Shown here in pieces: positions 581-64,000 of a stretch of 64,000 bases of DNA. Each line of letters begins with the position of its first letter. The stretch's first letter is position 1. Where the stretch lies: NCBI GenBank assembly GCA_029548485.1, contig JAKPNH010000008.1, positions 1,563-65,562 of the forward strand, given 5' to 3'. The stretch is from a bacterium. Lineage in GTDB: Bacteria > Patescibacteriota > Minisyncoccia > UBA6257 > Colwellbacteraceae. The notes beneath the pieces were generated by a model, which saw nothing but the letters and a program-made list of their open reading frames with translations, made no database searches and was not told where the DNA came from. Position numbers and translations under genes: made by a program.

Positions 581-582
581 TT

Positions 583-1083
583 TTATTCTCCGCAGCAATC
601 TACCAGCTTATCGACGATCTCTTCGAGCTTCCAGGGCTCGTCTTCTTTGGCGATTTCTTTCAATTCTTCCGCGCCGATCACTTTCAGTCTGATCGCCCAG
701 AACATCGAATAGAGCTTGTAGGCGTAGTCGAAAACCTCTTTGGCTTCCTCGGGCTTTTTGTCGGTTTGGGCTTTGGTGCCGACTTCGATCAAACGCATGG
801 CGGCCGCGAGCAAATGCTTGGCGATGCACCAGGACTCACCCTCTTTCCGGTCGATCATCTTGGCGAGAAGCTTTTTCCGCATTTCCCGGACTTCCTCCAA
901 TAGGTCGAAGTACTCTTTTTTGCCGGTTTTCTCGGCGGTGAAATAAAAATGCTCCTCGAGGCTGATCAAGTTCATAATGGCGATACTCAAATCTTCCTCC
1001 GAAGACAAGTCCAAGCTGCCTCCGGCTTCCAGATCCCGGATTTTTTTCATTATTTCCTCGAAACTCACGGCTTTCTCTTGCAT
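583..1083 (-). CDS. hypothetical protein (acidic, ends in CCGE)
   Basis: 166-aa ORF tightly packed between the CcdA-like and thioredoxin-like genes; no recognisable family. Confidence 0.5.
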   Translation of the reverse strand: MQEKAVSFEEIMKKIRDLEAGGSLDLSSEEDLSIAIMNLISLEEHFYFTAEKTGKKEYFDLLEEVREMRKKLLAKMIDRKEGESWCIAKHLLAAAMRLIEVGTKAQTDKKPEEAKEVFDYAYKLYSMFWAIRLKVIGAEELKEIAKEDEPWKLEEIVDKLVDCCGE

Positions 1084-1110
1084 GAACGTATTTTAGCGTA
1101 TTTCCGCAAA

Positions 1111-21329: not shown

Positions 21330-21330
21330 A

Positions 21331-22506: not shown

Positions 22507-22509
22507 TTA

Positions 22510-23784: not shown

Positions 23785-23813
23785 TATAAATCCATTATTA
23801 AAAATGGATAAAT

Positions 23814-51473: not shown

Positions 51474-52001
51474 TTAAGAAGAGGGCCTGTAATAGAACAA
51501 CCTTTCGCTTATCGTCGTTTGGAAAGTGAGTGGACCCTTGAACAAGGAGCTTTCCACTTGTATTTTGATCGTCACCCGTGGCGGATAATTGTCCGACTCG
51601 GTGATATAAAATCTCAAATCCGTCACCCGTACATCGTCGGCGGTCAAACGCTTCGGCATCTCGGCGCCTACCTTTCTCGTGATATAATCGCCACCCGGAG
51701 GCCTCATATACGTTACTTCCTGCCCCAGGTATTTGACGAATCGCAACGAATTCGTTCCTTCCGGTGTGGAATAATTTGTGCCGGTCCTTATCTCCCGCGC
51801 CATTTGCTCTATCACCAAAGAAAGATTATCCAAAATAGCCGTCTGGTTGGCCACGTTCCGCTCTGCCTTCAAAGAATTAGTAAAAATGGAGAGAATCAGG
51901 AAAACGACGCCCACGAAAACTCCCAAAGTGACGGTTACTTCCACGAGAGTAAACCCTGATTTTTTAGAAAGATTTATCATATTCATTGTTCCGCGCGCCA
52001 A
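51474..52001 (-). CDS. prepilin-type N-terminal cleavage/methylation domain protein (minor pilin)
   Basis: KKSGFTLVEVTVTLGV class III signal peptide. Confidence 0.7.
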   Translation of the reverse strand: MARGTMNMINLSKKSGFTLVEVTVTLGVFVGVVFLILSIFTNSLKAERNVANQTAILDNLSLVIEQMAREIRTGTNYSTPEGTNSLRFVKYLGQEVTYMRPPGGDYITRKVGAEMPKRLTADDVRVTDLRFYITESDNYPPRVTIKIQVESSLFKGPLTFQTTISERLFYYRPSS

Positions 52002-52543
52002 CCGATAAAATCCGTGGCTATTTTCGACGATCTGATTTCGGCCGGGTGTCTCGGATCGTACCAGGCTACGGTCGCGATCGCTCGGATTTTAAGATCGGAA
52101 AGAGGCCTGATTTGGATCCATCTTTTAAAAATAGTCGCGGTCGTTTCTCCCGCTTCGTTATAATCGTACAGACCTTCGCCGTTGATTCTTAAAAAACGTG
52201 CTTCTCCAAAAGTAAGATCGATGTCATTTTCACTTGGACCGTCGCAAGTCAATAAATGCCGCAAATCCGATTCGGAATGCATACTCTCATAAAATACCTC
52301 GATGCAATCGTTGTCGGAAAAGTTCTCGTTCCAGGAGTCTTCGCGAACAACATTGCTATCCAGAATGTTTTTCGTCACCTCGAGGCCTTCGGCCGCCAGA
52401 TTGGCGGCGATAAATTGGTCGGTAACGACCGAGCTTGTCCGAAGGGCGCTTATCGCCAAACTAAAAATGCCGAGGACGCTAGAGACGATGATTCCCATGG
52501 CGATCATTCCCTCGACGATGAATTGCCCTCTGGTGCTTCTCAT
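51983..52543 (-). CDS. prepilin-like minor pilin
   Basis: TRGQFIVEGMIAMGI N-terminal motif (G-1, E+5). Confidence 0.55.
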   Translation of the reverse strand: MRSTRGQFIVEGMIAMGIIVSSVLGIFSLAISALRTSSVVTDQFIAANLAAEGLEVTKNILDSNVVREDSWNENFSDNDCIEVFYESMHSESDLRHLLTCDGPSENDIDLTFGEARFLRINGEGLYDYNEAGETTATIFKRWIQIRPLSDLKIRAIATVAWYDPRHPAEIRSSKIATDFIGWRAEQ

Positions 52544-52563
52544 ATTGTTTGATTATAGTCGGT

Positions 52564-53148
52564 TTAACGCACTATCGAAACCATACCCGAAGCGAGCACC
52601 CCCACTTGCCGCGGTGTCCCGGACCCGTCCCTAGCTCTTATGGTAATAATTATTCCACCGTCGCCTCCGGCTTCGGAGTCGAACACCACTGTCGGATCCG
52701 GCGGGACAAATAATATTTTCTGCTCTCCACTTACAAACTCCACAAGTGGATCAAGAGTCATAAAGTAGAGCGACCCCACGGAAGACAAATCCGTAGTTTC
52801 GCCTATCAGCGGATTAAACAAAGCATCGAAAGCGCATCCCTCGTCTATGCCTACGTCCCTAAAAATATAAGCGCGGTCTTCTCCGGGAACGATATGCACG
52901 CCGTATCCGCAAACAAGTCCTCCTTGAGGATCGGCCAGGGTGGCGATGCTCAAAAATCTCGCGTAAGTGATGAGGCTTCTCAATTCTTCCTGGCTTTTGG
53001 AAAGCGTGAATTCTCTCTTGATCGAAGCTCCGGAAATACTCATCGACATCAAAAGCAAGGAAGTGATGCCGATCGTCACCACCATTTCGACCAACGTAAA
53101 CCCTGGCGCCGATTTTTTAAGCAAGGTTGAAGAACCGAAAATAGCCAT
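52564..53148 (-). CDS. prepilin-type minor pilin
   Basis: APGFTLVEMVVTIGI class III signal peptide. Confidence 0.7.
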   Translation of the reverse strand: MAIFGSSTLLKKSAPGFTLVEMVVTIGITSLLLMSMSISGASIKREFTLSKSQEELRSLITYARFLSIATLADPQGGLVCGYGVHIVPGEDRAYIFRDVGIDEGCAFDALFNPLIGETTDLSSVGSLYFMTLDPLVEFVSGEQKILFVPPDPTVVFDSEAGGDGGIIITIRARDGSGTPRQVGVLASGMVSIVR

Positions 53149-53962
53149 TACATATATTAAAGCCCAAAAACACGATTAAGAGAATCCCGAGCGCCATAAA
53201 CGGGCCGAAGGGCAGCATGTCTTTCATTCTTTTTTTTCGCAAAAGCAAGCTCATTCCTCCGAAAACTCCGCCCAAAATAAAGGAAAGCATCAAGGCCAAG
53301 ACTATGTCCGGCCAGCCGATAAAAAGTCCGGCGGCCGCCCCGAGCTTGGCGTCGCCCATGCCCATTCCTTTACCTTTCGTGAAAAAAATCAATCCCATAA
53401 AAAGCAGTCCGCCGAAAGCCGCGGCCGCCAAATGATTCAAAAAAATGTTCTGCCGCAACCCAAGAACGCTCGCGTAATATCCGATAAACGACCCCTCGGT
53501 CAGGCCGAAAGCCTTGGTCTGCGAACCGAGCAGAACGAACAATATTCCCAACAATCCGATGAAAAGGTTCAGTTCGTCCGGTATCACCTGGAAATAAAAA
53601 TCGATGAAAGACAAAACAAGGAGGCTTAACGCGAAAAGCGCGATCAAAAGTGCTTGCAAAGTCAAACCCCATTTGAGATAAGCCGCGACGAGGATAAGGC
53701 CGGATAAAATCTCGACGATCGGATATTGCCAGGATATTCTCCTGTGGCAGTTGCGGCATCTTCCTTTCTGTATAAAAAAACTGAAGATTGGAACAAGCTC
53801 GAACCATCTAAGCGTCTCGCCGCAAGAGCGGCATTTTGACCTGCCGCCGAGATGGATGCCGACCAAAGCGGTTTTATCCGGATCGTAACGTAAAATTACG
53901 ACATTCAAAAAGCTGCCGATGCAAACACCGAAAAAAAACAAAAAGAAATAATTAGCAAACAC
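53117..53962 (-). CDS. pilD: prepilin peptidase (A24 family)
   Basis: N-terminal CxxC...CxxC zinc-binding region and polytopic membrane domain with conserved Asp residues. Confidence 0.85.
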   Translation of the reverse strand: MFANYFFLFFFGVCIGSFLNVVILRYDPDKTALVGIHLGGRSKCRSCGETLRWFELVPIFSFFIQKGRCRNCHRRISWQYPIVEILSGLILVAAYLKWGLTLQALLIALFALSLLVLSFIDFYFQVIPDELNLFIGLLGILFVLLGSQTKAFGLTEGSFIGYYASVLGLRQNIFLNHLAAAAFGGLLFMGLIFFTKGKGMGMGDAKLGAAAGLFIGWPDIVLALMLSFILGGVFGGMSLLLRKKRMKDMLPFGPFMALGILLIVFLGFNICNGYFRFFNLA

Positions 53963-53969
53963 TATATAA

Positions 53970-54440
53970 TTACCTCACGCAGTACAAATTGTCTTGTGGA
54001 AAATCCGGACCGCAATTTAATCCATAAAGTGCTCCCTCATAGCTATCTACCGGAACCCCCCTCTCCATTCTTGCTCCTAGAACGTACTCAAAACCCCTCG
54101 GGATATTCACACCATATCGATAATCTTCTCCCGACGGGTCATTATCAGGAATATCCGCCTCATCTGCTACAGTTGCTACAAGAGCATCCTTTAAAGCGTC
54201 CCAACTAGCTGGTGCAGACACACTTCCCGGAGAACAAGTCGCTCCACCAGGATAATGCCCGCATCTATTGTAATAGAGCTCCAAATAGGTCTGGACTTTT
54301 TTAAGATCAGCCATCCTCCTCGTATCTCTCGCGTTTGATTGGACACTACGCGTTCCATTGAAGACCAATCCCATCAAAATGCCGATGACCGCGATAACGA
54401 TCACCATCTCGATCAATGTAAAACCTTTTTGCGATTTCAT
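53970..54440 (-). CDS. pilA: type IV major pilin
   Basis: QKGFTLIEMVIVIAVIGIL prepilin leader and hydrophobic alpha-1 helix; C-terminal Cys pair. Confidence 0.75.
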   Translation of the reverse strand: MKSQKGFTLIEMVIVIAVIGILMGLVFNGTRSVQSNARDTRRMADLKKVQTYLELYYNRCGHYPGGATCSPGSVSAPASWDALKDALVATVADEADIPDNDPSGEDYRYGVNIPRGFEYVLGARMERGVPVDSYEGALYGLNCGPDFPQDNLYCVR

Positions 54441-54508
54441 GTTTTTTGATTTTTTACGACTTTTATTTTTACCGTTTGACCCGAGTTTATATGTTCATTC
54501 TACCCGAA

Positions 54509-55717
54509 TTACAGCGTGGAGACAAACTGGAACATCGGCAGAAGGATCGAGGCGAAAAGCCCGGCCACGGCGCCGCCGATAACGATCATTAAAACCGGCT
54601 GGATCAGCTCCACCAGGTTGCCGACGGTTTCGTCGACCTCGCGGCTGTAAAATCCGGAAAGTTTCGATAAAAGCTCGTCCAAGCGGCCGGTGGTCTCTCC
54701 GACCGCGACCATTTGGCTCACTAGCGGAGGAAAAAGCTCCTGGTTTTTGGCGAGGGACTGCGACAGCAATTCTCCCCGCCTGATGTCTTCGGCCGAAGCT
54801 TTCAGGGCCTCGCCGTAAATCATGTTACCGATGGTTTCTCCGGTGATCTCCAGTGCTTGGGCGATCGGGATGCCGCCTTTGATGAGGATGCTTGCCGATT
54901 CGCCGAACTGGGCGATGGCGATATAGCGGAATAATTTGCCGAAAACCGGCATCCGGAAAACCAACTCGTCGTAAACGATCTTACCCTCGGCCGACCGGAA
55001 ATAATCCGCAAAAAAGAAAACCAGGGCGATGATGGCGAAAAAGACCAAAAACCACCATTGGGACAAAAATTGCCCGAAAACCACCAGGGCGTGGGTAAAA
55101 CCCGGCATCTGTATCCCCGAAGAGACGAACATGTCTTCGATCTGCGGCAAGACGCCGATAACAAGATAGGCGGCGACGCCGAGGAAGAGAAAAATCGTCA
55201 CCATCGGATAAGTCATCGAGTTTTTGATTTTACCGGACAAGGTCGCCTGGCGTTCGTAATAATCGGCCAAGTAATTGGCCGCTTCCTCGAGCCGGCCGGT
55301 GATTTCCGCCGACCTGATCATGTTCACGTAAAACGGCGAAAAGACGTTCTCGTATTTTTCCAAGGCCTGCGAAAGCGCCAAACCGGAATCGATGTCTTGG
55401 CGCACTTCTTCGATGGTTCTTTTTAAAAGGGTGTTTCTGGTTTGGTCGACCAGAGTTGTGAACGTTTTGTCGAGCGGCACTTGGGCCGAAAGCAAGGTGG
55501 CGAATTGCCTCGTAAAAACCATGAGATCGCGCAGACCCACCCGTTCGCCGAAAAACGGCAAACCGGCAAGGAAAGATTTCTTTTCTTCGCTTTCCAAGGT
55601 GAGAATGAAAAGCTCGTGCCCGGTCAAAATGCCGATGGCCGATTCCCTGGTCGGCGCTTCGACAAACCCGGCTTGAAGCTCTCCTTCTTTGGTTCTCGCT
55701 GAATACTTGAATCTCAT
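54509..55717 (-). CDS. pilC: type IV pilus inner-membrane platform protein PilC (GspF family)
   Basis: Duplicated GspF domains with TM segments. Confidence 0.9.
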   Translation of the reverse strand: MRFKYSARTKEGELQAGFVEAPTRESAIGILTGHELFILTLESEEKKSFLAGLPFFGERVGLRDLMVFTRQFATLLSAQVPLDKTFTTLVDQTRNTLLKRTIEEVRQDIDSGLALSQALEKYENVFSPFYVNMIRSAEITGRLEEAANYLADYYERQATLSGKIKNSMTYPMVTIFLFLGVAAYLVIGVLPQIEDMFVSSGIQMPGFTHALVVFGQFLSQWWFLVFFAIIALVFFFADYFRSAEGKIVYDELVFRMPVFGKLFRYIAIAQFGESASILIKGGIPIAQALEITGETIGNMIYGEALKASAEDIRRGELLSQSLAKNQELFPPLVSQMVAVGETTGRLDELLSKLSGFYSREVDETVGNLVELIQPVLMIVIGGAVAGLFASILLPMFQFVSTL

Positions 55718-55723
55718 CGGTTT

Positions 55724-56794
55724 TTACATCCGCTCGAGCAAAATCCTCAATTCCGAAGGATTCAAGGAATAAAGCTCGGCGTTCTCCAAAGAAATTTCCC
55801 TTTTTTTGACGAGGTCGGCCAAGGACCGGTTTAAAGTGGTCATTCCTTCCTGCAGGCTCGTCTCGATGACGAGATCGATCTGGTAGATCTTCTTTTCCCT
55901 GATCAAATTCCTGATGGCGGAATTAACGAACATGATTTCGCAGGCCGGGACGCGGCCGCCGTCAATGCGCGGCACGAGCCTCTGGGAAACGATGCCGACC
56001 AAAGTGGCGGCGAGCTGGGACGTTATCTGGCCTTGCTGGCTAGACGGGAAAGAATCGATGATGCGGTCGATGGTCTGGGCCGCGGAATTGGTGTGGAGGG
56101 TGGAAAAAACCAGGTGCCCGGTTTCCGCCGAAGTCATGGCCGTGGCGATGGATTCGGAATCCCTCATCTCGCCGATCATCACCACGTCCGGATCCTGGCG
56201 GAGCAAAGATTTAAGAGCCTGGTGGAAATTAAGGCTGTCGGTCTTCACTTCTCTTTGGGAAACGATGCACTTGTCTTGGACGAAGAGGTATTCGATCGGG
56301 TCCTCAATGGTGATGATGTGATCCATCCTCTTGTGGTTGATCTCGTCAACCAAAGCCGCCAAAGTGCTCGATTTTCCGTGCCCAGCCGGGCCGACGACCA
56401 AAACAAACCCCTGGGAAAGGCCGGTGAATTTGTGGAGGATCGACGGCAAGTGCAATTCTTCGAGGGTTTTGATCTGCGCCGGTATCAACCGGAGCGAAGC
56501 CGCCATGAATCCGCGCTGGAAAAAGACGTTGACGCGGAAACGGGCCTTGTCCTCGAAAGCATAGGAAAGGTCGAGGTCGCGGTAAGTAAGGAACTTTTCT
56601 TTCTGTTCGTCGGTAAGCAAGGCCCCGATCAGGCCAGCGGTCATTTCCGGAGTCAAAATCTGCTCTTTCGGCATGTCGATCAAACTGCCGTCGATGCGCA
56701 TCATCGGCCTTCGGCCGACTGCCAAATGCAGATCCGAGGCGTTGCTCCTCGCGGTCATCAGGAGCAGTTCGTTCATTTTTTGCCTGTAATCCAT
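55724..56794 (-). CDS. pilT: type IV pilus retraction ATPase PilT
   Basis: Walker A GPAGHGKSST; about 356 aa; PilT-type Asp/His boxes. Confidence 0.9.
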   Translation of the reverse strand: MDYRQKMNELLLMTARSNASDLHLAVGRRPMMRIDGSLIDMPKEQILTPEMTAGLIGALLTDEQKEKFLTYRDLDLSYAFEDKARFRVNVFFQRGFMAASLRLIPAQIKTLEELHLPSILHKFTGLSQGFVLVVGPAGHGKSSTLAALVDEINHKRMDHIITIEDPIEYLFVQDKCIVSQREVKTDSLNFHQALKSLLRQDPDVVMIGEMRDSESIATAMTSAETGHLVFSTLHTNSAAQTIDRIIDSFPSSQQGQITSQLAATLVGIVSQRLVPRIDGGRVPACEIMFVNSAIRNLIREKKIYQIDLVIETSLQEGMTTLNRSLADLVKKREISLENAELYSLNPSELRILLERM

Positions 56795-56843
56795 GTTGTT
56801 TGTTTTATTCTCCGGAATTCGTTGATTTTTATTATAACACGGC

Positions 56844-58577
56844 CTATTCCGTCTCCCTCAAAACTTCTTCGATTGATATAAATCCGTCCAATACTTTCAA
56901 TATACCGTCCTGCCTCAAAGTGATCATTCCCTGGCGCTCGCCTTCGTCGACGACATCGGCTTCGGTCGGGTTGCTGGCGATTATTTTTTCGAGCTCTCTC
57001 GTCATTTTCATGATTTCGAAAATGGCGATGCGGCCGGCGGTCCCTTTTCCCTTGCAGGCCGGACATCCCGGCGAGTGGAAAATCTGATAAGGCTCTTTAT
57101 AGATCAGTTTCGATCTTACGTCTTCCGGAAGCTTGGCGATCTCTTCCTTGATGATTTTCTGGATTTCCGGCGAAGCGGTTTCGGCTTCACGGCACTTTTC
57201 GCAAAGCCTTCCCAGAAGCCTTTGGGACATCATCAGGTTCACAGCCGACGGCAAAAGAAAAGGAGGAACTTTCATGTCGATCAATCTCGGAATGACTCCA
57301 GCGGCGTTATTCGTATGGAGCGTGGACAAAACAATGTGCCCGGTCAAGGCGGCGTTCACCGCCAAACCGGCGGTTTCGTTGTCGCGGATCTCGCCGACCA
57401 TGATGATATCCGGATCCTGCCTCAATATCTGGCGCAGCCCGGAAGCGAAATCGTATCCGATTTCCGGCTTCACCTGCGACTGGTTGACGCCCTCGACGAA
57501 ATATTCGACCGGGTCTTCCAAACTGACGATGTTCACGTCCTCCTGGTTTAAAATCTTCAAAAGCGCGTAAAGGGTGGTCGTTTTTCCGGATCCGGTCGGA
57601 CCGGTGACGAGCACCATTCCGAAAGGCTTCCTGATTCCCTCCTGGATGATGTCGGCGTTTTTGCCGACGATCCCCAAGCTATCGATACCCTTCAAACCGA
57701 TGCTCGGATCGAGAACGCGGAGCGCCACTTTTTCGCCCACCGGCGTCGGGAAAGTGGCGACGCGGAAATCAATGTCCCGCCCGAAGATCACCGTCCGGAA
57801 ACGGCCGTCTTGCGGGATCCTCGTTTCGTCTATCTTCAAATCGGAAAGGATCTTGATCCTCGAGACAAACGGCTGCTGGAGCTCTATGGGTAAAGAGGCC
57901 ACCTCTTCCAAATCGCCGTCCATCCTGAATCTCACCCTGACCCTGTTTCTCATGGGCTCGACGTGGATGTCCGAAGCCTTGCGTTCGACCGCCTCCCGGA
58001 AGGTCGAGGCGACCAATTTGATGATCGGCGCTTCCTCGGCCACTCCTCTCGCTTCCTCGAGTGCCACCGGCCGCTGCATGGAAGAAACCCCGTCGCCGGA
58101 TTTGATGCCCAAAGATTTTATCGCCGCCTCAACTTCGGACTTGTAGGGATTGTATCTGCGGAGCACGAGCTCCAGATCCGCCGGAGTGATGATGAAAACC
58201 CCCAAGTTCAGTCGATTGGCTTTGGCGATGAACCTCAAAGCGTCCTGCGCCCGACTGTTCTGGGGGTCGACCATGCCGACGATAAGCATGTCTTTGGTCC
58301 GCGAAATCGGAGCCACCTTGTAAGTTTGGACCGTTTCCTTCGGCACCAAAGCCAAAAGATCGTCGGTCAAAGACTCCACGTTTATTTTTTGGTAAGGAAT
58401 GCCGATGATCTCGCTTTTGATTTCGGCGATCTTTTCTTCGGGCACGGTCCGCCGCAAATAAAGCAGGTCTTCAACCGGCCTCTGGGAAACCGCCGATTCT
58501 TTCAAAATCTGCTCGCCGGCTTCTTTGGTGAGCAGATTCTTTTTGACGAGGGCCTGCGTTAAAACCTGGGAATCCAT
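56844..58577 (-). CDS. pilB: type IV pilus assembly ATPase PilB (GspE family)
   Basis: N-terminal GSPII domain plus Walker A GPTGSGKTTT and C-terminal CxxC tetracysteine. Confidence 0.9.
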   Translation of the reverse strand: MDSQVLTQALVKKNLLTKEAGEQILKESAVSQRPVEDLLYLRRTVPEEKIAEIKSEIIGIPYQKINVESLTDDLLALVPKETVQTYKVAPISRTKDMLIVGMVDPQNSRAQDALRFIAKANRLNLGVFIITPADLELVLRRYNPYKSEVEAAIKSLGIKSGDGVSSMQRPVALEEARGVAEEAPIIKLVASTFREAVERKASDIHVEPMRNRVRVRFRMDGDLEEVASLPIELQQPFVSRIKILSDLKIDETRIPQDGRFRTVIFGRDIDFRVATFPTPVGEKVALRVLDPSIGLKGIDSLGIVGKNADIIQEGIRKPFGMVLVTGPTGSGKTTTLYALLKILNQEDVNIVSLEDPVEYFVEGVNQSQVKPEIGYDFASGLRQILRQDPDIIMVGEIRDNETAGLAVNAALTGHIVLSTLHTNNAAGVIPRLIDMKVPPFLLPSAVNLMMSQRLLGRLCEKCREAETASPEIQKIIKEEIAKLPEDVRSKLIYKEPYQIFHSPGCPACKGKGTAGRIAIFEIMKMTRELEKIIASNPTEADVVDEGERQGMITLRQDGILKVLDGFISIEEVLRETE

Positions 58578-58578
58578 T

Positions 58579-58881
58579 TTACAAAGCGGCGAAAGGATTT
58601 TCCTTTCCGAGGCTGTTCGGTCCGATGACCGGAAGATCGACCGACCTTCGCGGCGTTTCCGAAGAGAAGAATTCGTCTTGAAGAATTTCCTCCGGATTGA
58701 ATTTCAAACCGCTCAAATCGGCCACGGACTGGAGATTGGCCGGCAGGATCGCCTCGATGAGCGGCGCCGGGGTGAAAAAGAGATAATAGGCGCCGATGGC
58801 GAGAATGGCCAGAGCCGACGCCGCGGAAATTAGAATGAACGTTCTCGACCCTCTTTGATTCGGTTGGATGATGACTGCCAT
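58579..58881 (-). CDS. small membrane protein of the pilus cluster
   Basis: Single TM (FILISAASALAILAIGAYYLFF); position between pilO-like and pilB. Confidence 0.4.
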   Translation of the reverse strand: MAVIIQPNQRGSRTFILISAASALAILAIGAYYLFFTPAPLIEAILPANLQSVADLSGLKFNPEEILQDEFFSSETPRRSVDLPVIGPNSLGKENPFAAL

Positions 58882-58882
58882 T

Positions 58883-59443
58883 TTATTCGTAATATGTGTT
58901 GATTATTAATTGAAGGGAATAAATATTGGCTCTGCCGGAGGCGCTGACATTCATCGAGGAAACGTCCATCAGCCTCATATTGTTCTCGATATCGCGGATA
59001 AAAGCTTTGAGGTTTTCGTAAGAGCCCTCGGCTCTGACCGTAGCCCGCAAAACCCCGTAAGCGGAAACGAGAGAGTTCCCGTTAGACTGCATCGGCGGAT
59101 GCTGGAAACTGACGCTCGCCACCGTCACCTGGTTCGCGGCCGAAAGTCCGTGGATCTGCGCCAAAACTTCGGGGATTTCTTCGTCTGGAGGCAAAGAACG
59201 GTCGAGATCGTCTTTGTACTGGAAGCTGTCCTCGTATTGCCTCGCCAAATTGGCGAAAGCCTCCACCTGGGCCGCGGCCCGGCTCAAAACAACGGCCGCG
59301 GCGTCCCTATCCGCCCTGAGCTGTTTGACGCCGTTCTCTCCCTCGAATTCCGGCCTGATGAAATTGGTGAACACGAAAACGGCCGCCACCAAAAGGGCGA
59401 TGCCTCCCAGAATGCTCAAGAATCTTTTAAAGGAAGAAGCCAT
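58883..59443 (-). CDS. pilO: PilO-like pilus assembly protein
   Basis: N-terminal TM plus coiled coil; position downstream of pilN-like. Confidence 0.55.
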   Translation of the reverse strand: MASSFKRFLSILGGIALLVAAVFVFTNFIRPEFEGENGVKQLRADRDAAAVVLSRAAAQVEAFANLARQYEDSFQYKDDLDRSLPPDEEIPEVLAQIHGLSAANQVTVASVSFQHPPMQSNGNSLVSAYGVLRATVRAEGSYENLKAFIRDIENNMRLMDVSSMNVSASGRANIYSLQLIINTYYE

Positions 59444-59972
59444 TGTTAAAAATTATTTGCATTTGGAAAGAGACCCCGGTCTGTCCGAGAGTCGCCCCGC
59501 CTATGGAAACGCTTTCCACCTCCTGAAGATTCCGGAAAACGTCGAGCTGGCTCGCCAAGGCTTCGTAGTTTACGGCCGTTCCGCTCAAATTCGCCGTCAA
59601 GCTCGGAATGTCGAGGTCCATCGAGCTGTAGGCGACGTCTTGACGGGTATTCGTCTCGAGAAACGGAAATACGTTCGAAGAAAAAACATGCCTCGAAAGC
59701 AGCGTCTTCAAGTTTTCTATCTGGGAATAGAAATCTATGAAGGCCTGTCTGTCTTGCGGGGAAACCTGCTCGTCGAGAGCGTCGATCTGCGCTTTTATAT
59801 CCTCGGTGTTGCTTAAAAGAAAAGGCTTGTACCCGTAAGCCAATCCGAAATAGCTTACTCCGAGCAGAATGAGGATGAATAAGGAAAATATCAAAAGTCT
59901 TGTCGGCCAACCGGCGGGTTCTCGGCCGACGTTGAATCTCTGATCGATGTTTGTTGAATATTGCGGTGGCAT
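59427..59972 (-). CDS. pilN: PilN-like pilus assembly protein
   Basis: Short cytoplasmic N-terminus, TM, periplasmic domain; follows pilM. Confidence 0.5.
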   Translation of the reverse strand: MPPQYSTNIDQRFNVGREPAGWPTRLLIFSLFILILLGVSYFGLAYGYKPFLLSNTEDIKAQIDALDEQVSPQDRQAFIDFYSQIENLKTLLSRHVFSSNVFPFLETNTRQDVAYSSMDLDIPSLTANLSGTAVNYEALASQLDVFRNLQEVESVSIGGATLGQTGVSFQMQIIFNNGFFL

Positions 59973-59975
59973 TTT

Positions 59976-61064
59976 TTAAAATTGCCTTAGTCCGAGGCCG
60001 ATCGCGACCGCGAGCGTCCCTCCCAATTCGTTCACCACTGGCTGGAGCGCCGGCGGATAGCTCAAAGCGGAAAAAGGACTGGGCCGTTCGACTTTCATTT
60101 GCAGGAAATCCGCGGCGTATTTATCCAAGCCGGCAAGCTCGCCGCCTCCGCCGGAAAGGATCAACTTTCCGATTTGGCCGCGATAGTTCTTCTCGAAATT
60201 GTCTTTCACTCGTCTTACTTCATTAAGTATAACATCGACGTAAGGCAGCATTAAAGTGGACAACTCGTATTCTCCGCCCATCCCGAGCAAACCCCGGCGT
60301 TTTTTCAATTCTTCGGCTCTTCTCACGTTGATGTTCAAGCCGTTCGAGACCGCCTGGCTCATGGATCCGCCGGCATAATCGAGATAAGCGCTCGACAATA
60401 AATATCCGTTTCTCGCGACGTAAAGTCCGGTCGATCTTCCGCCGATGTCGAGGATCAAAGAGAGCTCTTCGTCTCCTTTCGTAAAAACCCGGGCGAGGCT
60501 CATCCCTTCGATTTCGATCACCCTCAAGTTCAGACCGGCGGCCTGGAAAATGCTTTTGTATTTCTCGACGATATTGTTCGGCATGGCCGAAAGAAAAACC
60601 TGCTGCTTTCTCTGCCCTTTTTCGTCTTCGAATTCGCCGACCACCGACCATTCGGTGGCAACCGAAGCGATTGCCGCCGGCACCAAGGCCCGCGCCTGGT
60701 AGGACATGATCTGGTCCATCTCGTTTTTCGGCATCAGCGGCAGCTCGAGCAAGGTGGTGAAAGCGGAAAAAGGTGGCAGAGAAGCGAAAACCGCGGCCGC
60801 TCCGGGCTTCACTTGCCTGACGAGTGTTTGGAGCATGTTGGCCGCCTCCTTGTCGTCCATTTTGAGACTGCTCGTCTGGATGGCGCTGTTTTGCCGGGAA
60901 AGATGGCTGTAGGTTTCGAGCAGCCCGTAATTTTTGAAATTCGGCCGGTCGGCGACGATGGCGAGTTCGACCAGCTTGATTGAAGTCGTTCCGATGTCGA
61001 CCCCGATGGCCGACTGAAAAGAAAGCAGGGGTTTTAAGGGCTTCAAAAAATCGAGTATCGCCAT
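59976..61064 (-). CDS. pilM: type IV pilus assembly protein PilM (actin-like ATPase)
   Basis: Actin-fold phosphate motifs (VGVDIGTTSIKLVELA). Confidence 0.8.
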   Translation of the reverse strand: MAILDFLKPLKPLLSFQSAIGVDIGTTSIKLVELAIVADRPNFKNYGLLETYSHLSRQNSAIQTSSLKMDDKEAANMLQTLVRQVKPGAAAVFASLPPFSAFTTLLELPLMPKNEMDQIMSYQARALVPAAIASVATEWSVVGEFEDEKGQRKQQVFLSAMPNNIVEKYKSIFQAAGLNLRVIEIEGMSLARVFTKGDEELSLILDIGGRSTGLYVARNGYLLSSAYLDYAGGSMSQAVSNGLNINVRRAEELKKRRGLLGMGGEYELSTLMLPYVDVILNEVRRVKDNFEKNYRGQIGKLILSGGGGELAGLDKYAADFLQMKVERPSPFSALSYPPALQPVVNELGGTLAVAIGLGLRQF

Positions 61065-61088
61065 GAATTGCTATTATTAATGATAGCA

Positions 61089-61778
61089 CGAATGCCGAAT
61101 CCCACGAATATCAAAGAACGGCTTCTGGATCTCGTTTTTCCGAAGCTTTGCCTGAATTGTCATCGTCTTCTCGAAGAACCGATCGATAAAGAAAACCTCT
61201 TGTGCGGCCGCTGTTTCGGTTCGATCGTCGTCAACCGCCTGATATTCCCGGAACCGGGATTTTTTCTCGGCAGCGCCACTCTTTACAAAATAGAGGCCGC
61301 GAGAAATCTGATTCATTTCCTTAAATACGAAGATTTTCCCGGAGTGAAGCATCCGATCGCTAAAATAATCAAAGCCTATCTCCGAAAATCCGCTTTTATC
61401 GATCTTTTCCGCAACGCCAAGCCGGAAATCGTTCCCGTTCCCCTTTATTTCCTGAAATCCATAAACCGCGGATTCAATCAGGCCGAAGACATCGCCGAGG
61501 TTTTGGCCGGCGAAACCGGCTGGCCGACCCGAAACCGCTTGCTTCGAAGAATCAGAAACACGCGATCCCAAGCCAAGCTCGAACAAAAATCAGAAAGACT
61601 GGAAAATATGGCCGGCGCCTTTATTTTAAAAAGCGGTTTAGAAGAATACGTCGTCGGAAAAAGCTTTATCGTTGTCGACGACGTTTACACTTCGGGCGCA
61701 ACCATGTCCGAAGCGATCAAGGTATTGAAATCCGGCGGCGCCAAAAGCGTCGCCGGATTCGTATTCGCGAAAGGATAA
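61089..61778 (+). CDS. comF: competence protein ComF (zinc-ribbon + phosphoribosyltransferase domain)
   Basis: N-terminal CxxC...CxxC and C-terminal PRTase motif FIVVDDVYTSGATM. Confidence 0.8.
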   Translation, partial: RMPNPTNIKERLLDLVFPKLCLNCHRLLEEPIDKENLLCGRCFGSIVVNRLIFPEPGFFLGSATLYKIEAARNLIHFLKYEDFPGVKHPIAKIIKAYLRKSAFIDLFRNAKPEIVPVPLYFLKSINRGFNQAEDIAEVLAGETGWPTRNRLLRRIRNTRSQAKLEQKSERLENMAGAFILKSGLEEYVVGKSFIVVDDVYTSGATMSEAIKVLKSGGAKSVAGFVFAKG

Positions 61779-61780
61779 AA

Positions 61781-63214
61781 TCAGCAAGGACCATCTACGC
61801 AACTCCAGGATCCACTCCAACCGCCATGAGACGAGCATCTGCTAAGGCAAGTTTCGGGGCCTCCCACATATTGGCATTTTACTCCGGCGCCCAAACTTCC
61901 TGACGGCGTATAACCATCGTTGCAGGTGCAACTCCAACTTCCCGGGCTGCACGATTCGCATATAAAGATCCAGTTGCAAAACTTTCCGGATGAACAATCG
62001 GAATCACTGCAACATTGGCAACAGGAAGTGCTGCAGCCTAAAGAAGTCTCCGAACCGGTTCCAGAACAACTGCCGCCGCTACAGACTTGGGTAACTTGTA
62101 TTCTGTTACAGAAAGAGCAGGTATAGCCTGTGCCGCAATAATTTCCATCTGTGTCTCTCGAACAACCGCAAGATCCGGATCCCCCGGAGAAAGTTCCATC
62201 GGCATTGCAGGTGCTTGTCGTTGTCGTGCCGCTGGCCGATTCATCACAACTAGACGAATAATTACAAGAGCAGCCTCCCGTGGTGACTGTTCCCGGATAA
62301 ACGCTCGCACTATTATCGTTACAATCGATGCCGCCGGAATTCAAAGTGTTTCTGCGTTTTCCATTTGTTGGAGCCGCATCTTGAAGATATTGAGTGGCGT
62401 TCGCCGGATAGGTGTCGTTATCAAAATCAACCATCCAAATATTGGTTTTTCTAAGCGCTCCGTCCTCTCCCAAAGCGATCGCTCCGTTTACGGTAATGGT
62501 TTTCCCGGAATTGAAGGCGAAGGGAGCGTTAAGCGTCAGGGTAACTCCTCCGTTGATCGTTAAATTGCCGTTATCCACTCCGTCGGCCGTGGAAATAGAA
62601 CAGTTGCTGCTCAAAGTGGCGTTTCCGCCCATGGGAATGCCGCAGGCGTCGCTCCAAGCCAAAGTGATCGAGTTTTCCCGTCCGGCCGCGTCTTTGGCCA
62701 AGAAAACCGTGTGATAGACGGAATCATGGGTGTCTTTGACGATCCATTCTCCTTCGTATAAAGACGCTCCACGCTGTTTCGGCGTTGATTGGAATCGCCT
62801 TAAAAACTCTTTGAATATATTTTCCTCTCCTGTTTCTTTGATGGAGGATGCTGCTGATTCTGTTTGTCTTACGAATTCCAAGGGCAGAATCACGACGTCG
62901 TTATCGGTCTCGATATGCGCTTCGACCGAAACGATTTCCGCATCGTCGTCGACAACTACCGACAATTTCTGCGTGTTTCCGACATGGACATCGACCGGAT
63001 CGATGATCGCCTCGACAAACTTCGGCCAAGTTTCTTCGGCCTGACTGATGTGGTACACCTGCCTGCCCTCCGGAAGAACAAGCTTTTTCCCGACGGCGCT
63101 CGGCGATTCCGGGTTTCTATTCATAACGGCGTCGATGGCAAAAAGGGCGAGAACGATCAAAATAACGACAGCGGCGATTTTTCCGGCGTCGATTTTCTTG
63201 AAATCAAATTTCAT
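61781..63214 (-). CDS. membrane-anchored cysteine-rich surface protein (about 40 Cys in the C-terminal 200 aa; Gly/Ser/Thr-rich)
   Basis: N-terminal TM anchor, beta-rich middle, then dense Cys repeats (CSCNYSSSC..., CCQCCSDSDC...). Confidence 0.6.
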   Translation of the reverse strand: MKFDFKKIDAGKIAAVVILIVLALFAIDAVMNRNPESPSAVGKKLVLPEGRQVYHISQAEETWPKFVEAIIDPVDVHVGNTQKLSVVVDDDAEIVSVEAHIETDNDVVILPLEFVRQTESAASSIKETGEENIFKEFLRRFQSTPKQRGASLYEGEWIVKDTHDSVYHTVFLAKDAAGRENSITLAWSDACGIPMGGNATLSSNCSISTADGVDNGNLTINGGVTLTLNAPFAFNSGKTITVNGAIALGEDGALRKTNIWMVDFDNDTYPANATQYLQDAAPTNGKRRNTLNSGGIDCNDNSASVYPGTVTTGGCSCNYSSSCDESASGTTTTSTCNADGTFSGGSGSCGCSRDTDGNYCGTGYTCSFCNRIQVTQVCSGGSCSGTGSETSLGCSTSCCQCCSDSDCSSGKFCNWIFICESCSPGSWSCTCNDGYTPSGSLGAGVKCQYVGGPETCLSRCSSHGGWSGSWSCVDGPC

Positions 63215-63223
63215 GTTTTTGTT

Positions 63224-64000
63224 TTATTTGACCTTTAGGCCTGTTCCCGGTTCCGCGTCTTTGGGAACGTTCGGCCATTCCAGATAGTCAAACCTCGGCG
63301 CGGTCAGCCGGTAAGAGACTTCGAAATCCCCGCTTGTTTTATCTGAGCTTCCCGCAATCAAAATGCGGTTATTCGCGACGTCTTTTTCGTAATAAACTTC
63401 GCCTTTGAATCCGGGCGTGAGGAGAATACTCAAATTTTTCCATTGTTCTCCGAAATTGGTCGTGCTGCGGAAAAGCCAGAAATCAGATCCCTTGTCCGCG
63501 AAGGCGAAATTGATTTCTCCCGAAAATTCACCGTTGCCGATGTCGGTCAGTTTCAAAACGCCGGTCGTTTCTTCTTTCACTCCGGTCATGCCCGGAGTAT
63601 AAGTCGAATACTGCTCGCCGTTAATGTTGAAGAGCGGGTCCACCGTACCCACGGTCAGTTTTCCGGACCCGCCACCGACAACCACCGTGTCTCCGGCCGC
63701 GGTGCCGAAACGCGCCGTAGTCGCGCCTCCGCTTACGACATCGAGTTTATATCCCGGAGCGGTTGTTCCGATACCGACTTTGCTAGCGTCGTCGATGCTG
63801 ATCGCCGCCGCCGAAAGAGAACCATCCGTTTGGATAACGCCGATGTCTCCGAATGAATTATCTCCGGTCCGGCGGCCTCCTTTGATATAAATACCCCTAT
63901 CGTTTGAATGGTTGATCCTCACTATTGCCGCCGAATTATCGGTGTCATTCCCTCCCTCGAAACGGGCCACTTCGACTTCTCCGGCGATCGTGGCGGCAAG
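63224..64000 (-). CDS. partial Gly-rich fibre/tail-fibre-like surface protein (5' end beyond the window)
   Basis: The frame stays open to the window edge; contains the IGTTAPGYKLDV motif typical of phage tail-fibre / endosialidase-chaperone-like repeat proteins. Confidence 0.5.
   Translation of the reverse strand, partial: LAATIAGEVEVARFEGGNDTDNSAAIVRINHSNDRGIYIKGGRRTGDNSFGDIGVIQTDGSLSAAAISIDDASKVGIGTTAPGYKLDVVSGGATTARFGTAAGDTVVVGGGSGKLTVGTVDPLFNINGEQYSTYTPGMTGVKEETTGVLKLTDIGNGEFSGEINFAFADKGSDFWLFRSTTNFGEQWKNLSILLTPGFKGEVYYEKDVANNRILIAGSSDKTSGDFEVSYRLTAPRFDYLEWPNVPKDAEPGTGLKVK

What the first reader, a model, noticed from the sequence alone, without database searches (positions are those of the whole stretch)
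61781..64000. Cysteine-dense membrane-anchored surface protein plus tail-fibre-like Gly-rich protein adjacent to the pilus locus
ORF 61781-63214 has an N-terminal TM anchor and a C-terminal region of about 200 aa with about 40 cysteines in CxC/CC/CxxC arrays, embedded in a G/S/T-rich sequence, suggesting a disulfide-knotted extracellular domain. The next gene (63224 to beyond 64000, partial) carries the IGTTAPGYKLDV motif seen in phage tail-fibre / endosialidase-chaperone-type repeat proteins. Sitting next to the pilus and comF genes, these are candidate host-attachment adhesins. The thioredoxin-like / CcdA pair at 212-1896 could service their disulfides.
Basis: partly seen in the sequence, partly recalled or inferred. 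Interest (0 to 1): 0.55.

Follow-up and report, generated by a model that had tools for sequence, protein, structure and literature searches.

The report
Pilus-mounted fibre and cysteine-knot partner
Next to the type IV pilus genes of an ultrasmall (Patescibacteria) bacterium sit two linked genes, a giant pilin whose tail looks like a phage tail fibre and a secreted or membrane-anchored protein ending in a knot of 28 cysteines; they are probably a two-part device for grabbing host cells, but neither has been studied experimentally.

Summary
Both ORFs are real, but they lie on the minus strand. ORF A (61781-63214, 477 aa) has an N-terminal hydrophobic helix. It has 30 Cys, not about 40, and 28 of them fall in the last 180 aa (15.6% against a 0.72% background). 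The frame is under strong purifying selection, so it is not an artefact. The partial gene B (63224 to the window end) is 693 aa in the identical public contig. It starts with a prepilin signal (G|FTLME), so it is a modular type IV pilin. A pilin domain is followed by a tail-fibre/MAT-type shaft with three capping-loop motifs, including IGTTAPGYKLDV, and then a conserved C-terminal beta-sandwich. It has no S74 chaperone domain.

The new point is that A belongs to an unnamed Patescibacteria family (521 clusters at E<=1e-30). In 27 of 36 informative loci, members of this family sit just downstream of a fibre gene carrying B's C-terminal domain. A dedicated pilin-like gene is often nearby or fused.

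Best reading: a pilus-presented fibre plus a disulfide-knotted partner/adhesin, analogous to CofB/CofJ. Binding between A and B is inferred, not shown. The Trx-like/CcdA genes exist but lie 60 kb away. I rate this a new variant of a known kind, of moderate interest.

The parts
63224..64000 (-). 3' part of gene B: the last 258 codons plus the stop of a 693-aa modular type IV pilin. The 5' 435 codons lie beyond the window end.
   Evidence: Translation. The full gene is in L001:7910-9991, a contig identical to the window over 12,220 nt. The N-terminus MRKTKKGGLPLGDAANRILKTKIRG|FTLMEMLVYLGVF scores 21.6 bits on PF07963 N_methyl, cutoff 21.2.
63743..63778 (-).
   Evidence: Motif scan. Profile matches to Bdellovibrio MAT fibres run through this motif. 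The motif is defined in PMC10769870.
63227..63670 (-). Conserved C-terminal domain of B (B residues 546-693), a beta-sandwich with two helices. It is shared with many signal-peptide fibres of Patescibacteria.
   Evidence: 70 homologues at 40-64% identity. AlphaFold pLDDT is 83-97 for residues 141-240 of the partial protein. It matches fibres located upstream of A homologues at E=1e-30 to 1e-57.
61781..63214 (-). Gene A: a 477-aa extracytoplasmic protein of an unnamed Patescibacteria family. Its start is 9 nt after the stop of B.
   Evidence: ORF and junction sequence. No Pfam, NCBIfam or PHROG hit. 77 homologues; 521 clusters at E<=1e-30.
63125..63193 (-). N-terminal hydrophobic helix of A (about residues 8-30). 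It is either a signal anchor or a cleavable Sec signal peptide (possible AIDA|V site).
   Evidence: Hydropathy. AlphaFold helix. Family-wide uncharged runs have a median of 17 residues.
62462..63076 (-). Conserved core of A (residues 47-251). It comprises a beta-sandwich (about 51-186, with the conserved DVHVGD and DTHDxxYHT motifs) and a short beta-solenoid-like segment with the invariant pair C191/C205.
   Evidence: BLAST coverage of homologues. Conserved columns (numbering there is one lower because Met1 was left out). pLDDT above 90. Only weak Ig-like PDB matches.
62285..62461 (-). Single MopE-type 'putative metal-binding' repeat unit in A (residues 252-310: WMVDFDNDTYP...IDCNDNSASVYPG).
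   Evidence: This stretch aligns 24 times to the repeats of P0180, full-sequence E=1.6e-31. P0180 and P0235 are strong PF11617 proteins. A itself is below the Pfam reporting threshold.
61784..62323 (-). Cysteine-rich tail of A (residues 298-477): 28 Cys, 47% G/S/T, pI 4.1. It is specific to this lineage.
   Evidence: Counts. 51 synonymous against 3 non-synonymous differences versus L007, with all Cys conserved. No homologues beyond close relatives. No PDB match. Low model confidence for residues 358-477.
61092..61778 (+). ComF-like phosphoribosyltransferase gene. It lies in the opposite orientation, wedged between A (2 nt gap) and pilM (27 nt gap).
   Evidence: Pribosyltran and DZR_2 hits. Gene calls in L001. 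The same arrangement occurs in L004 and L007.
51474..61064 (-). Type IV pilus assembly operon: pilM, pilN-like, pilO, a 100-aa ORF, pilB, pilT, pilC, a 156-aa pilin, a prepilin peptidase (53117-53962) and three pilin-like genes.
   Evidence: Pfam hits. Prepilin motifs GFTLIE/GFTLVE.
212..1896 (-). Their link to gene A is unproven.
   Evidence: PDB sequence match to 3kp8/3kp9, E=1.3e-11. DsbD_TM at 27.1 bits, equal to the cutoff. Sequences.

Best explanation
B and A form a two-gene surface module, probably one transcript, placed at the head of the type IV pilus locus of a Colwellbacteria-like Patescibacterium.

B is a modular minor pilin. A 24-residue leader would be cut by the locus-encoded prepilin peptidase (inferred). 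The pilin domain inserts into the pilus, most likely at the tip (inferred). It carries a tail-fibre/MAT-type beta-helical shaft with three capping-loop motifs and ends in a conserved beta-sandwich domain (shown by sequence and model). By analogy with MAT fibres and with CofB, the shaft would trimerise (inferred).

A is exported through Sec. It folds outside the cytoplasm into a beta-sandwich plus a short solenoid with one invariant disulfide, then a MopE-type metal/Ca-binding unit, then a tail knotted by about 14 disulfides (architecture shown, disulfides inferred).

A-family genes follow fibre genes carrying B's C-terminal domain in most genomes, and both of these parts are conserved while A's tail is variable. 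I therefore propose that A's conserved core docks onto the fibre's C-terminal domain and that the variable Cys-knot tail is the exposed surface that contacts the host cell. A retractile pilus would thus present a fibre-plus-adhesin complex, working like CofB/CofJ or phage gp37/gp38. The docking and the adhesin role are inferences.
For: - Identity of the continuation: the window matches L001 with 0 mismatches over 12,220 nt.
- Prepilin signal and N_methyl hit in full-length B.
- Prepilin peptidase and complete assembly genes lie in the same locus.
- B residues 25-256 are homologous to stand-alone 261-269-aa pilin-like proteins (E=7e-41 and 3e-32). B residues 510-692 are homologous to the C-termini of the signal-peptide fibres that precede A homologues in distant genomes (E=5e-39 and 3e-30). 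This is a Rosetta-stone type fusion.
- Capping-loop motifs and MAT-fibre profile hits. Viral tail-protein fold matches.
- Gene order: a fibre gene with the B C-terminal domain lies upstream of the A gene, on the same strand and within 2.2 kb, in 11 of 15 genome loci and 16 of 21 informative metagenome loci.
- Tandem duplicated fibre+A pairs have diverged equally: 0.58 for the fibre domain and 0.58-0.60 for the A core.
- There are 9 nt between the B stop and the A start, and a TATAAT lies upstream of B.
- Extracytoplasmic disulfide signature: even Cys counts in 72 of 74 tails and an invariant Cys pair in the core. Purifying selection on the tail.
- Homologues carry adhesin-type modules (LRR, Laminin_G_3, Glug, Ig-like) in place of the Cys tail.
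- Precedents: modular pilins, including a pilin+S74 architecture (PMC8179133). PilX2 acts as a pilus adhesin in Saccharibacteria (PMC12206443). CofB trimer plus secreted CofJ (PMC6048534).
Against: - No test of A-B binding was possible.
- Gene adjacency can reflect co-regulation only.
- The association is not universal. 9 of 36 A loci lack the fibre, and 2 of 4 fibre-side loci lack A nearby.
- Most fibres with this C-terminal domain carry Sec signals, not pilin signals; only about 3 of 70 do. The module therefore does not generally depend on a pilus.
- If A's N-terminal helix is an uncleaved anchor, A could not ride on a pilus tip.
- The N_methyl score of B is only just above the cutoff, and the TIGR02532 score is just below its cutoff (15.4 against 16.3).
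- The model of the Cys tail has low confidence.
- No expression or localisation data exist.
Confidence: 0.45

Rival explanations
1. A is an independent cell-surface protein, such as a membrane-anchored adhesin or an envelope/S-layer-associated protein. It is merely co-transcribed with fibre genes, and the two products act separately on the cell surface without binding each other.
For: The N-terminal hydrophobic helix is compatible with a signal anchor. 9 of 36 A loci have no fibre gene nearby. One homologue carries a PG_binding_1 domain. Small anchored proteins or unrelated genes are sometimes inserted between the fibre gene and the A gene.
Against: The fibre-then-A order on the same strand is kept across very divergent lineages, down to 30-40% identity, and through a tandem duplication in which both genes diverged equally. 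The parts that are conserved are exactly the fibre C-terminus and the A core. That pattern is expected for an interface.
Confidence: 0.25
2. A is an extracytoplasmic maturation factor for the fibre. In this reading it is a membrane-tethered chaperone or trimerisation helper that replaces the missing S74 intramolecular chaperone or a phage Tfa-type assembly protein, and it is not part of the final structure.
For: B and its relatives lack the S74 domain that chaperones folding in the related fibres. In phages the gene downstream of a tail-fibre gene is typically its chaperone (general knowledge). The A core is conserved and lies directly downstream of the fibre gene.
Against: Chaperones are usually small and conserved throughout. 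A instead has a long, lineage-variable C-terminal part rich in disulfides or replaced by LRR, lectin or Ig modules, which is typical of exposed binding proteins. The non-S74 MAT fibres of Bdellovibrio fold without such a partner (PMC10769870).
Confidence: 0.15
3. The pilus is a competence (DNA-uptake) pilus, and B and A serve DNA capture rather than host-cell adhesion.
For: comF is embedded in the locus. Modular minor pilins can bind DNA, for example ComZ, mentioned in PMC8179133. B's N-terminus gives weak ComGF/ComGD-type hits.
Against: All ectodomains are acidic, with pI 4.1-6.0 and only 5 K+R in the 180-aa tail. The shaft and motifs are those of glycan or cell-surface binding fibres. The NCBIfam competence hits cover only the generic pilin N-terminus and fall far below cutoff.
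Confidence: 0.08
4. The pair is a prophage remnant, that is a tail fibre plus accessory gene, or the Cys-rich ORF is a frameshifted low-complexity artefact.
For: Tail-fibre-type motif and viral fold matches. The composition of the tail is unusual.
Against: There are no phage genes around: the flanks are housekeeping and pilus genes, conserved in three species. There is no PHROG hit of known function and no tblastn hit in 50,697 phage records. B carries a pilin signal. The tail shows 51 synonymous against 3 non-synonymous changes with all 30 Cys conserved, and the alternative frames are full of stops or not conserved.
Confidence: 0.02

Closest known systems
CofB / CofJ of ETEC CFA/III (and TcpB / TcpF of Vibrio cholerae): a trimeric modular minor pilin plus a secreted partner from the same operon (PMC6048534, PMC9565799)
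   Same: Both have a large minor pilin with a long leader and extra beta domains after the pilin module. Both have a Sec-exported non-pilin protein encoded in the same operon. In the known systems the partner binds the C-terminal domain of the pilin trimer at the pilus tip and mediates attachment. That is the mechanism proposed here.
   Different: There is no sequence similarity: the PDB sequence search with full-length B found only a Bdellovibrio fibre. B's extra module is a tail-fibre-type beta-helix, not a beta-repeat/H-type lectin. A is far larger than the CofJ binding peptide logic requires, and it is Cys-rich. Binding is untested here. The host is a monoderm-like Patescibacterium.
Modular type IV pilins (PilB/PilC of Streptococcus sanguinis; catalogued architecture IPR012902-IPR030392 = pilin + S74 domain; PMC8179133) and PilX1/PilX2 of Saccharibacteria TM7x (PMC12206443)
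   Same: B has a class III signal peptide and a pilin module with a functional module grafted at the C-terminus. Many catalogued examples come from CPR phyla. PilX2 is needed for host binding by a Patescibacterium. A pilin+S74 architecture implies that tail-fibre-type shafts on pilins already exist in databases.
   Different: B lacks the S74 domain and any other named domain, so an InterPro-based survey would miss it. Its C-terminal domain is instead shared with Sec-type fibres. A dedicated partner gene such as A has not been described for these pilins.
Mosaic adhesive trimer (MAT) fibres of Bdellovibrio bacteriovorus, non-S74 subgroup (Bd2133, Bd1334; PMC10769870), and S74-type phage tail fibres/endosialidases
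   Same: They share the repeated capping-loop motif (V-G-x-G-x-x-x-P-x-x-x-L), with profile E-values of 5.6e-12 and 4e-9. The beta-helical shaft is followed by a beta-sandwich tip instead of an S74 chaperone. Both are used by a bacterium that lives on other bacteria.
   Different: MAT fibres start with a signal peptide and a conserved 130-aa beta-rich domain, whereas B starts with a pilin. In MAT and phage fibres the C-terminal tip is the variable part, whereas here it is the conserved part. No downstream partner gene is described for MATs.
MopE-type 'putative metal-binding motif' repeat proteins (PF11617) and the cysteine-rich large extracellular proteins noted in Peregrinibacteria (PMC4736985)
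   Same: A residues 252-310 align with the PF11617-type repeat. CPR genomes were already noted to encode large Cys-rich exported proteins thought to act in attachment.
   Different: A has a single divergent unit that is below the Pfam threshold. The 170-aa Cys tail has no detectable relatives outside its own clade. The Peregrinibacteria proteins are much larger and are not linked to fibre genes in that paper.
PilY1 / PilC non-pilin tip adhesins of type IVa pili
   Same: PilY1/PilC is a non-pilin, Sec-exported protein encoded beside minor pilins. A conserved 'carrier' part docks on tip pilins and a variable 'effector' part binds targets. A shows the same pattern of conservation.
   Different: A has no beta-propeller (PF05567). 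Its conserved part is N-terminal and its variable part C-terminal, the reverse of PilY1. There is no sequence or fold similarity.

Membership tests
Type IV pilin (class III signal peptide, PF07963 / IPR012902) - gene B | Leader ending in Gly, hydrophobic residue at +1, Glu at +5, followed by about 20 hydrophobic residues | tested here: met
   The N-terminus reads ...KIRG|FTLMEMLVYLGVFSVASVFLTNILL. PF07963 scores 21.6 bits against a cutoff of 21.2. TIGR02532 scores 15.4, just under its 16.3 cutoff. The signal lies outside the window, in a contig identical to it.
Type IV pilin - gene B | Globular pilin module homologous to other pilins | tested here: met
   B residues 25-256 match stand-alone pilin-like proteins of 261-269 aa at E=7e-41 and 3e-32. 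One of these scores 28.4 bits on N_methyl.
Type IV pilin - gene B | Prepilin peptidase and assembly machinery (PilB, PilC, PilM/N/O) encoded in the genome | tested here: met
   Peptidase_A24 lies at window 53117-53962. T2SSE x2, T2SSF, PilM_2 and PilO lie in the adjacent operon.
Type IV pilin - gene B | Processing by the peptidase and incorporation into the filament | not testable with these tools
   This needs biochemistry or cryo-EM of pili.
S74 / MAT-type trimeric beta-helical fibre - gene B | Capping-loop motif V-G-x-G-x-x-x-P-x-x-x-L repeated along a beta-helix | tested here: met
   There are three copies, at B residues 238, 413 and 510. The profile hits 8ond (Bd2133) at 5.6e-12 and 8ojn/8onc (Bd3182) at 4e-9, both through this motif. 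The motif is defined.
S74 / MAT-type trimeric beta-helical fibre - gene B | C-terminal S74 intramolecular chaperone/protease domain (SDxxxK) | tested here: not met
   There is no Pfam hit other than N_methyl at E<=10 on the full protein and none on the C-terminal 258 aa. B therefore resembles the non-S74 subgroup at most.
S74 / MAT-type trimeric beta-helical fibre - gene B | Conserved about 130-aa beta-rich N-terminal domain after a Sec signal (Bdellovibrio MAT definition) | tested here: not met
   B's N-terminus is a pilin module.
S74 / MAT-type trimeric beta-helical fibre - gene B | Homotrimeric intertwined assembly | not testable with these tools
   Only monomer prediction was available. 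The shaft part of the monomer model has low confidence.
Phage tail fibre / prophage element | Sequence or fold similarity to phage tail proteins | tested here: inconclusive
   No PHROG of known function. No tblastn hit in 50,697 phage records. However, 9 BFVD matches at E<=1e-3 to tail, tail-fibre or endosialidase-like models, with low TM-scores of 0.15-0.31.
Phage tail fibre / prophage element | Phage structural or lysis genes in the neighbourhood | tested here: not met
   The flanks are HhH-GPD, CYTH, NUDIX and HD genes on one side and comF plus the pilus operon on the other. The same synteny is found in L004 and L007.
MopE-type Cys-rich repeat (PF11617) - gene A | Match to the Pfam model above the gathering score | tested here: inconclusive
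   A gives no hit at E<=1. Even so, residues 252-310 align to 24 repeats of P0180 (E=1.6e-31), which scores 335 bits on PF11617. 2 of 78 family members hit PF11617 directly.
PilY1 / PilC tip adhesin - gene A | C-terminal PilC/PilY1 beta-propeller | tested here: not met
   No Pfam hit. The model shows a beta-sandwich plus solenoid, not a propeller.
Disulfide-bonded extracytoplasmic protein - gene A | Export signal, and cysteines in even numbers and conserved positions | tested here: met
   Hydrophobic N-terminus. 72 of 74 family tails have an even Cys count. Two invariant Cys lie in the core. 30 of 30 and 25 of 30 Cys are conserved in two relatives. The disulfides themselves were not observed.
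CofB/CofJ-type pilin-partner pair | Physical binding of the secreted partner to the C-terminal domain of the minor-pilin trimer | not testable with these tools
   Only gene order (27 of 36 loci) and equal divergence of duplicated pairs speak for it. There is no sequence similarity to CofB or CofJ.

The most novel reading that the evidence does not exclude
Patescibacteria possess a widespread, so far unnamed two-component host-capture device. It consists of a phage-tail-fibre-like trimeric fibre whose conserved C-terminal domain carries a separate protein of the A family (more than 500 clusters, a new fold combination), and that protein's hypervariable disulfide-knotted or lectin/LRR head sets host specificity. 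In this lineage the fibre has been fused to a type IV pilin, so that a retractile pilus fishes for host cells with a tail-fibre-plus-adhesin tip. The A family would then be a new class of fibre/pilus tip adhesin, functionally parallel to phage gp38 and to CofJ/PilY1.
Probability: 0.3. Interest if true: 0.72.

Novelty: new variant of a known kind. Interest (0 to 1): 0.57.

Why it matters
How ultrasmall Patescibacteria recognise and hold on to their host cells is a central open question for a quarter of bacterial diversity. So far only a few pilins of cultivated Saccharibacteria have been tested.

This locus offers a concrete, testable candidate. It contains a pilin that carries a tail-fibre-type shaft, and a conserved partner family with a variable, disulfide-knotted head. 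The recurrent fibre-partner gene pair is found across Parcubacteria-type lineages and Saccharibacteria bins, which would make host-range determinants predictable from metagenomes. It also links three fields that use the same fibre module: phage tail fibres, Bdellovibrio MAT fibres and type IV pili.

The A core is a large family with no Pfam model, so it is worth defining. If the pair does not interact, the result is still useful, because both genes can now be annotated correctly as a modular pilin and an exported Cys-rich MopE-related protein rather than 'hypothetical'.

Tried and rejected
- For A, the PDB Foldseek search gave only weak Ig-like matches, E>=2e-3 and TM about 0.15. For the B tip it gave E>=0.04. 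No fold assignment is claimed from these.
- The search for related loci with the full gappy alignment A1 failed. It worked after I trimmed the alignment to the 113-residue core, A3.
- Searching with the Cys tail alone returned one close relative and nothing in the PDB. The core profile against the PDB gave only chance-level hits, E>=0.26.
- PHROGs and NCBIfam gave nothing for A.
- tblastn of B's C-terminus against phage genomes found no match.
- The prophage reading and the frameshift-artefact reading were rejected.
- The DNA-receptor reading was judged unlikely because the ectodomains are acidic.
- A mirror-tree correlation between the fibre C-terminus and the A core (Pearson 0.84, Spearman 0.39) is reported but not relied on, because shared phylogeny alone could produce it.
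- The promoter/terminator scan found no more sites than in shuffled sequence.
- I could not decide between a signal anchor and a cleaved signal peptide for A, because no SignalP or TMHMM tool was available.
- I mistakenly left out Met1 of A in alignment A1 and in the structure job, so residue numbers are one lower than the true numbering.


Full report
**Observation.** Both ORFs of the finding are on the minus strand.

ORF A (61781-63214) encodes 477 aa. It has one strongly hydrophobic stretch near the N-terminus. The enrichment is nonetheless extreme: 15.6% against 0.72% in the other inferred proteins of the window, binomial P = 2e-28.

The ORF that runs off the window end (63224-64000, 258 codons) contains KVGIGTTAPGYKLDV. 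It lies upstream of A, and its stop is 9 nt before A's ATG.

A ComF-like gene (61092-61778, plus strand) and a complete type IV pilus operon (51474-61064, minus strand) follow.

**Beyond the window.** The exact protein A is encoded on JGI contig Ga0116243_10000057 (237 kb) and in MAG GCA_035367625.1. Locus L001 from the JGI contig is identical to the reverse complement of the window over all 12,220 shared bases. It therefore supplies the missing 5' part of the upstream gene.

Full-length B is 693 aa and begins MRKTKKGGLPLGDAANRILKTKIRG|FTLMEMLVYLGVFSVASVFL. This is a class III (prepilin) signal with Gly at -1, Phe at +1 and Glu at +5. It scores just above the Pfam N_methyl cutoff, 21.6 against 21.2 bits, and just below the TIGR02532 cutoff. 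The prepilin peptidase, a 156-aa probable major pilin and three further pilin-like genes lie in the same locus.

B is therefore a large, modular pilin and not a free tail-fibre protein.

**Anatomy of B.**
- Residues 25-256 are homologous to stand-alone pilin-like proteins of 261-379 aa from distant Patescibacteria, E=7e-41 and 3e-32. Those proteins themselves end in an 'LGxxxxW' element and a GNVGIGxxxPxxxLEV loop.
- B has three such loops, at residues 238, 413 and 510.
- A profile of B's C-terminal relatives hits the crystallised Bdellovibrio 'mosaic adhesive trimer' fibres Bd2133 (E=5.6e-12), Bd3182 (E=4e-9) and Bd1334, precisely through this element. Caulton et al. define it as the capping loop of the intertwined trimeric beta-helix shared with S74-type phage fibres (PMC10769870).
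- The AlphaFold model of the last 258 residues is confident only for the final beta-sandwich, pLDDT 83-97. It still retrieves predicted phage tail, tail-fibre and endosialidase-like proteins from BFVD: 9 hits at E<=1e-3, best 1.1e-8, with low TM-scores.
- Against a literal phage origin: there is no S74 domain, no informative PHROG, no tblastn hit in 50,697 phage genomes, and the flanking genes are housekeeping and pilus genes.

**Anatomy of A.** No Pfam, NCBIfam or PHROG model matches. Seventy-seven homologues were found, all from Patescibacteria where named. A profile search of 1.84 billion representatives finds 521 clusters at E<=1e-30.

The conserved part is residues about 47-306, and the C-terminal part varies. 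Residue numbers are one lower than the true numbers used below, because I omitted Met1 from those jobs. AlphaFold (mean pLDDT 75) gives the following:
- a helix at residues 10-31;
- a confident beta-sandwich at about 51-186;
- a run of short strands, like a small beta-solenoid, at about 199-262;
- three long strands at 310-352;
- low confidence for residues 358-477.

Invariant residues include C191 and C205 and the motifs DVHVGD, DTHDxxYHT, AWSDACGIP and DGVDNGN. PDB comparisons give only weak Ig-like matches.

Residues 252-310 (WMVDFDNDTYP...IDCNDNSASVYPG) align 24 times to the repeats of a 2391-aa protein (E=1.6e-31), which Pfam identifies as Cu-binding_MopE 'putative metal-binding motif'. 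A thus contains one divergent unit of that repeat.

The Cys tail itself has no relatives outside its own clade and no PDB match.

**Is the Cys tail real coding sequence?** Yes.
- Against the orthologue in L007, residues 298-477 show 51 synonymous and 3 non-synonymous codon differences, and all 30 Cys are conserved.
- Against L004 (56% identity), 25 of 30 Cys columns are conserved.
- Across the family, the region after the core is Cys-rich in general (median 7%), and 72 of 74 tails have an even number of Cys. This is the signature of fully paired disulfides in an exported protein.
- In other members the tail is replaced by LRR, Laminin_G_3, Glug or Ig-like modules, which are binding modules.

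**The gene pair.** This is the main new result. I examined A-family loci from GTDB genomes, from metagenomes and from individual look-ups. In each I searched six-frame ORFs with the window's proteins or with profiles.

A gene carrying B's C-terminal domain lies upstream of the A gene, on the same strand and within 2.2 kb, in 11 of 15 genome loci and 16 of 21 informative metagenome loci. That is 27 of 36 in total. In many loci the two genes abut or overlap. In others a small anchored protein, a toxin-antitoxin-like pair or a reverse 464-aa gene intervenes.

In two Colwellbacteria-type genomes the pair is tandemly duplicated (fibre-A-fibre-A), and the two copies have diverged equally: 0.58 for the fibre domain and 0.58-0.60 for the A core.

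In L005, L006, L012, L026, L037 and L045, a separate pilin-like gene homologous to B's N-terminal module sits one to four genes upstream of the fibre. In the window clade (L001, L007, L004), and independently in L020 and L028, the pilin and the fibre are one polypeptide. This is a Rosetta-stone type fusion. It argues that the pilin-like protein and the fibre work together physically.

The link is not absolute. Most fibres with this C-terminal domain have Sec-type signals followed by a conserved WTNPSxxPPGG-like N-terminus. Two of four fibre-side look-ups showed no A gene nearby.

**Mechanism.** Shown: the architectures, the export signals, the pilin signal, the conserved gene order, and the pattern 'conserved fibre C-terminus + conserved A core + variable A tail'.

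Inferred: B is processed by the locus peptidase, enters the pilus (probably at the tip, as argued for bulky modular pilins in PMC8179133) and trimerises through its shaft. A is exported, oxidatively folded, and docks by its core on the fibre's C-terminal domain. It then exposes the Cys-knot tail as the contact surface for the host cell.

The best documented parallel is ETEC CofB, a trimeric modular minor pilin. Its C-terminal domain binds the secreted CofJ, encoded in the same operon, and CofJ bridges the pilus to the host (PMC6048534). Phage gp37/gp38 and PilY1 follow the same logic. In Saccharibacteria a minor pilin with an extra C-terminal domain (PilX2) is required for host binding (PMC12206443).

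I give this reading 0.45. The main rivals are an independent surface protein that is only co-transcribed (0.25), an extracytoplasmic fibre chaperone replacing the missing S74 domain (0.15), and a role in DNA capture by a competence pilus (0.08; the ectodomains are acidic). A prophage or artefact reading is essentially excluded.

**The redox genes.** ORF 212-598(-) is a membrane-anchored thioredoxin-like protein with a CPHC motif. It is homologous to the oxidising Trx-like domain of Synechococcus VKOR, E=1.3e-11. ORF 1111-1896(-) is DsbD_TM/CcdA-like at exactly the Pfam cutoff. They could take part in extracytoplasmic thiol chemistry. However, they are 60 kb away, CcdA-type proteins normally deliver reducing power, and no VKOR or DsbB was looked for outside the window. 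The proposed servicing of A therefore remains speculation.

**Novelty and verdict.** Modular pilins, including a pilin+S74 architecture, have been catalogued and are frequent in CPR phyla (PMC8179133). MAT fibres are known from Bdellovibrio. Cys-rich exported proteins were noted in CPR genomes (PMC4736985).

What appears new is threefold: the non-S74 pilin-fibre fusion, the large unnamed A family, and above all its recurrent pairing with fibre genes bearing one particular conserved C-terminal domain. I rate this a new variant of a known kind, with interest 0.57.

Noticed in passing
window 20800-24000: Low-GC island (GC 0.34-0.39 against about 0.52 elsewhere). It encodes nucleoside diphosphate kinase, a RibD_C/DHFR-like protein, Maf, GTP cyclohydrolase I and two ORFs without hits. 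It may be a horizontally acquired block of nucleotide/folate metabolism genes.
   Followed up: partly
window 212-1896 (-): A stand-alone, membrane-anchored VKOR-type thioredoxin-like protein (CPHC) has no VKOR domain attached. It lies two genes from a DsbD_TM/CcdA-like protein, with an unrelated acidic 166-aa ORF ending in CCGE between them. Which way electrons flow is unclear.
   Followed up: partly
window 61064-61781: comF lies antisense between gene A and pilM. There are only 2 nt to the end of A and 27 nt between the divergent comF and pilM starts, so the promoters must lie inside coding sequence. The same arrangement is conserved in L004 and L007.
   Followed up: no
L005:1025-2572, L006:2973-4478, L020:4451-5983: A conserved 500-515-aa multi-pass membrane protein with a QxxRW-like motif sits directly upstream of the pilin-like gene of the cassette in three distant genomes. 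It gives a weak Glyco_trans_2_3 hit (18 bits, below cutoff). It might glycosylate the pilin or fibre.
   Followed up: partly
L020:7265-9030: In one genome the pilin-fibre fusion (P0080, 400 aa) is followed by a signal peptidase I (Peptidase_S26) gene and then an extremely glycine-rich 356-aa exported protein, instead of by an A-family gene.
   Followed up: no
proteins P0078-P0136 (homologues of B's C-terminus): Many Sec-type fibres share a conserved sequence right after the predicted signal-peptide cleavage site, A|W-T-(N/D/E)-P-(S/T)-x-x-P-P-G-G-N. It could be the attachment point of the fibre to the cell or to the pilin-like protein.
   Followed up: no
L009:5015-10588 and L010:5550-11113: Tandem duplication of the whole fibre + A pair (fibre-A-fibre-A) in two Colwellbacteria-type genomes. 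The A copies carry 34 and 56 Cys in their tails.
   Followed up: partly
L019:2475-3866, L046, L048, L050, L052: In one subgroup a conserved 464-aa secreted protein (9-10 Cys) is inserted on the opposite strand between the fibre gene and the A gene. Several of these bins are labelled Gammaproteobacteria, which may be mis-binning.
   Followed up: no
L001:241-2068 (outside the window, same contig): A BglII-type restriction endonuclease, an N6/N4 DNA methyltransferase and an HTH regulator lie at the contig end, about 6 kb beyond the window.
   Followed up: no
window 49680-51140 (-): A 486-aa ORF directly after the three minor-pilin-like genes gives only a weak Kre9_KNH Ig-like hit. It may be a further non-pilin component of the pilus locus.
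   Followed up: no
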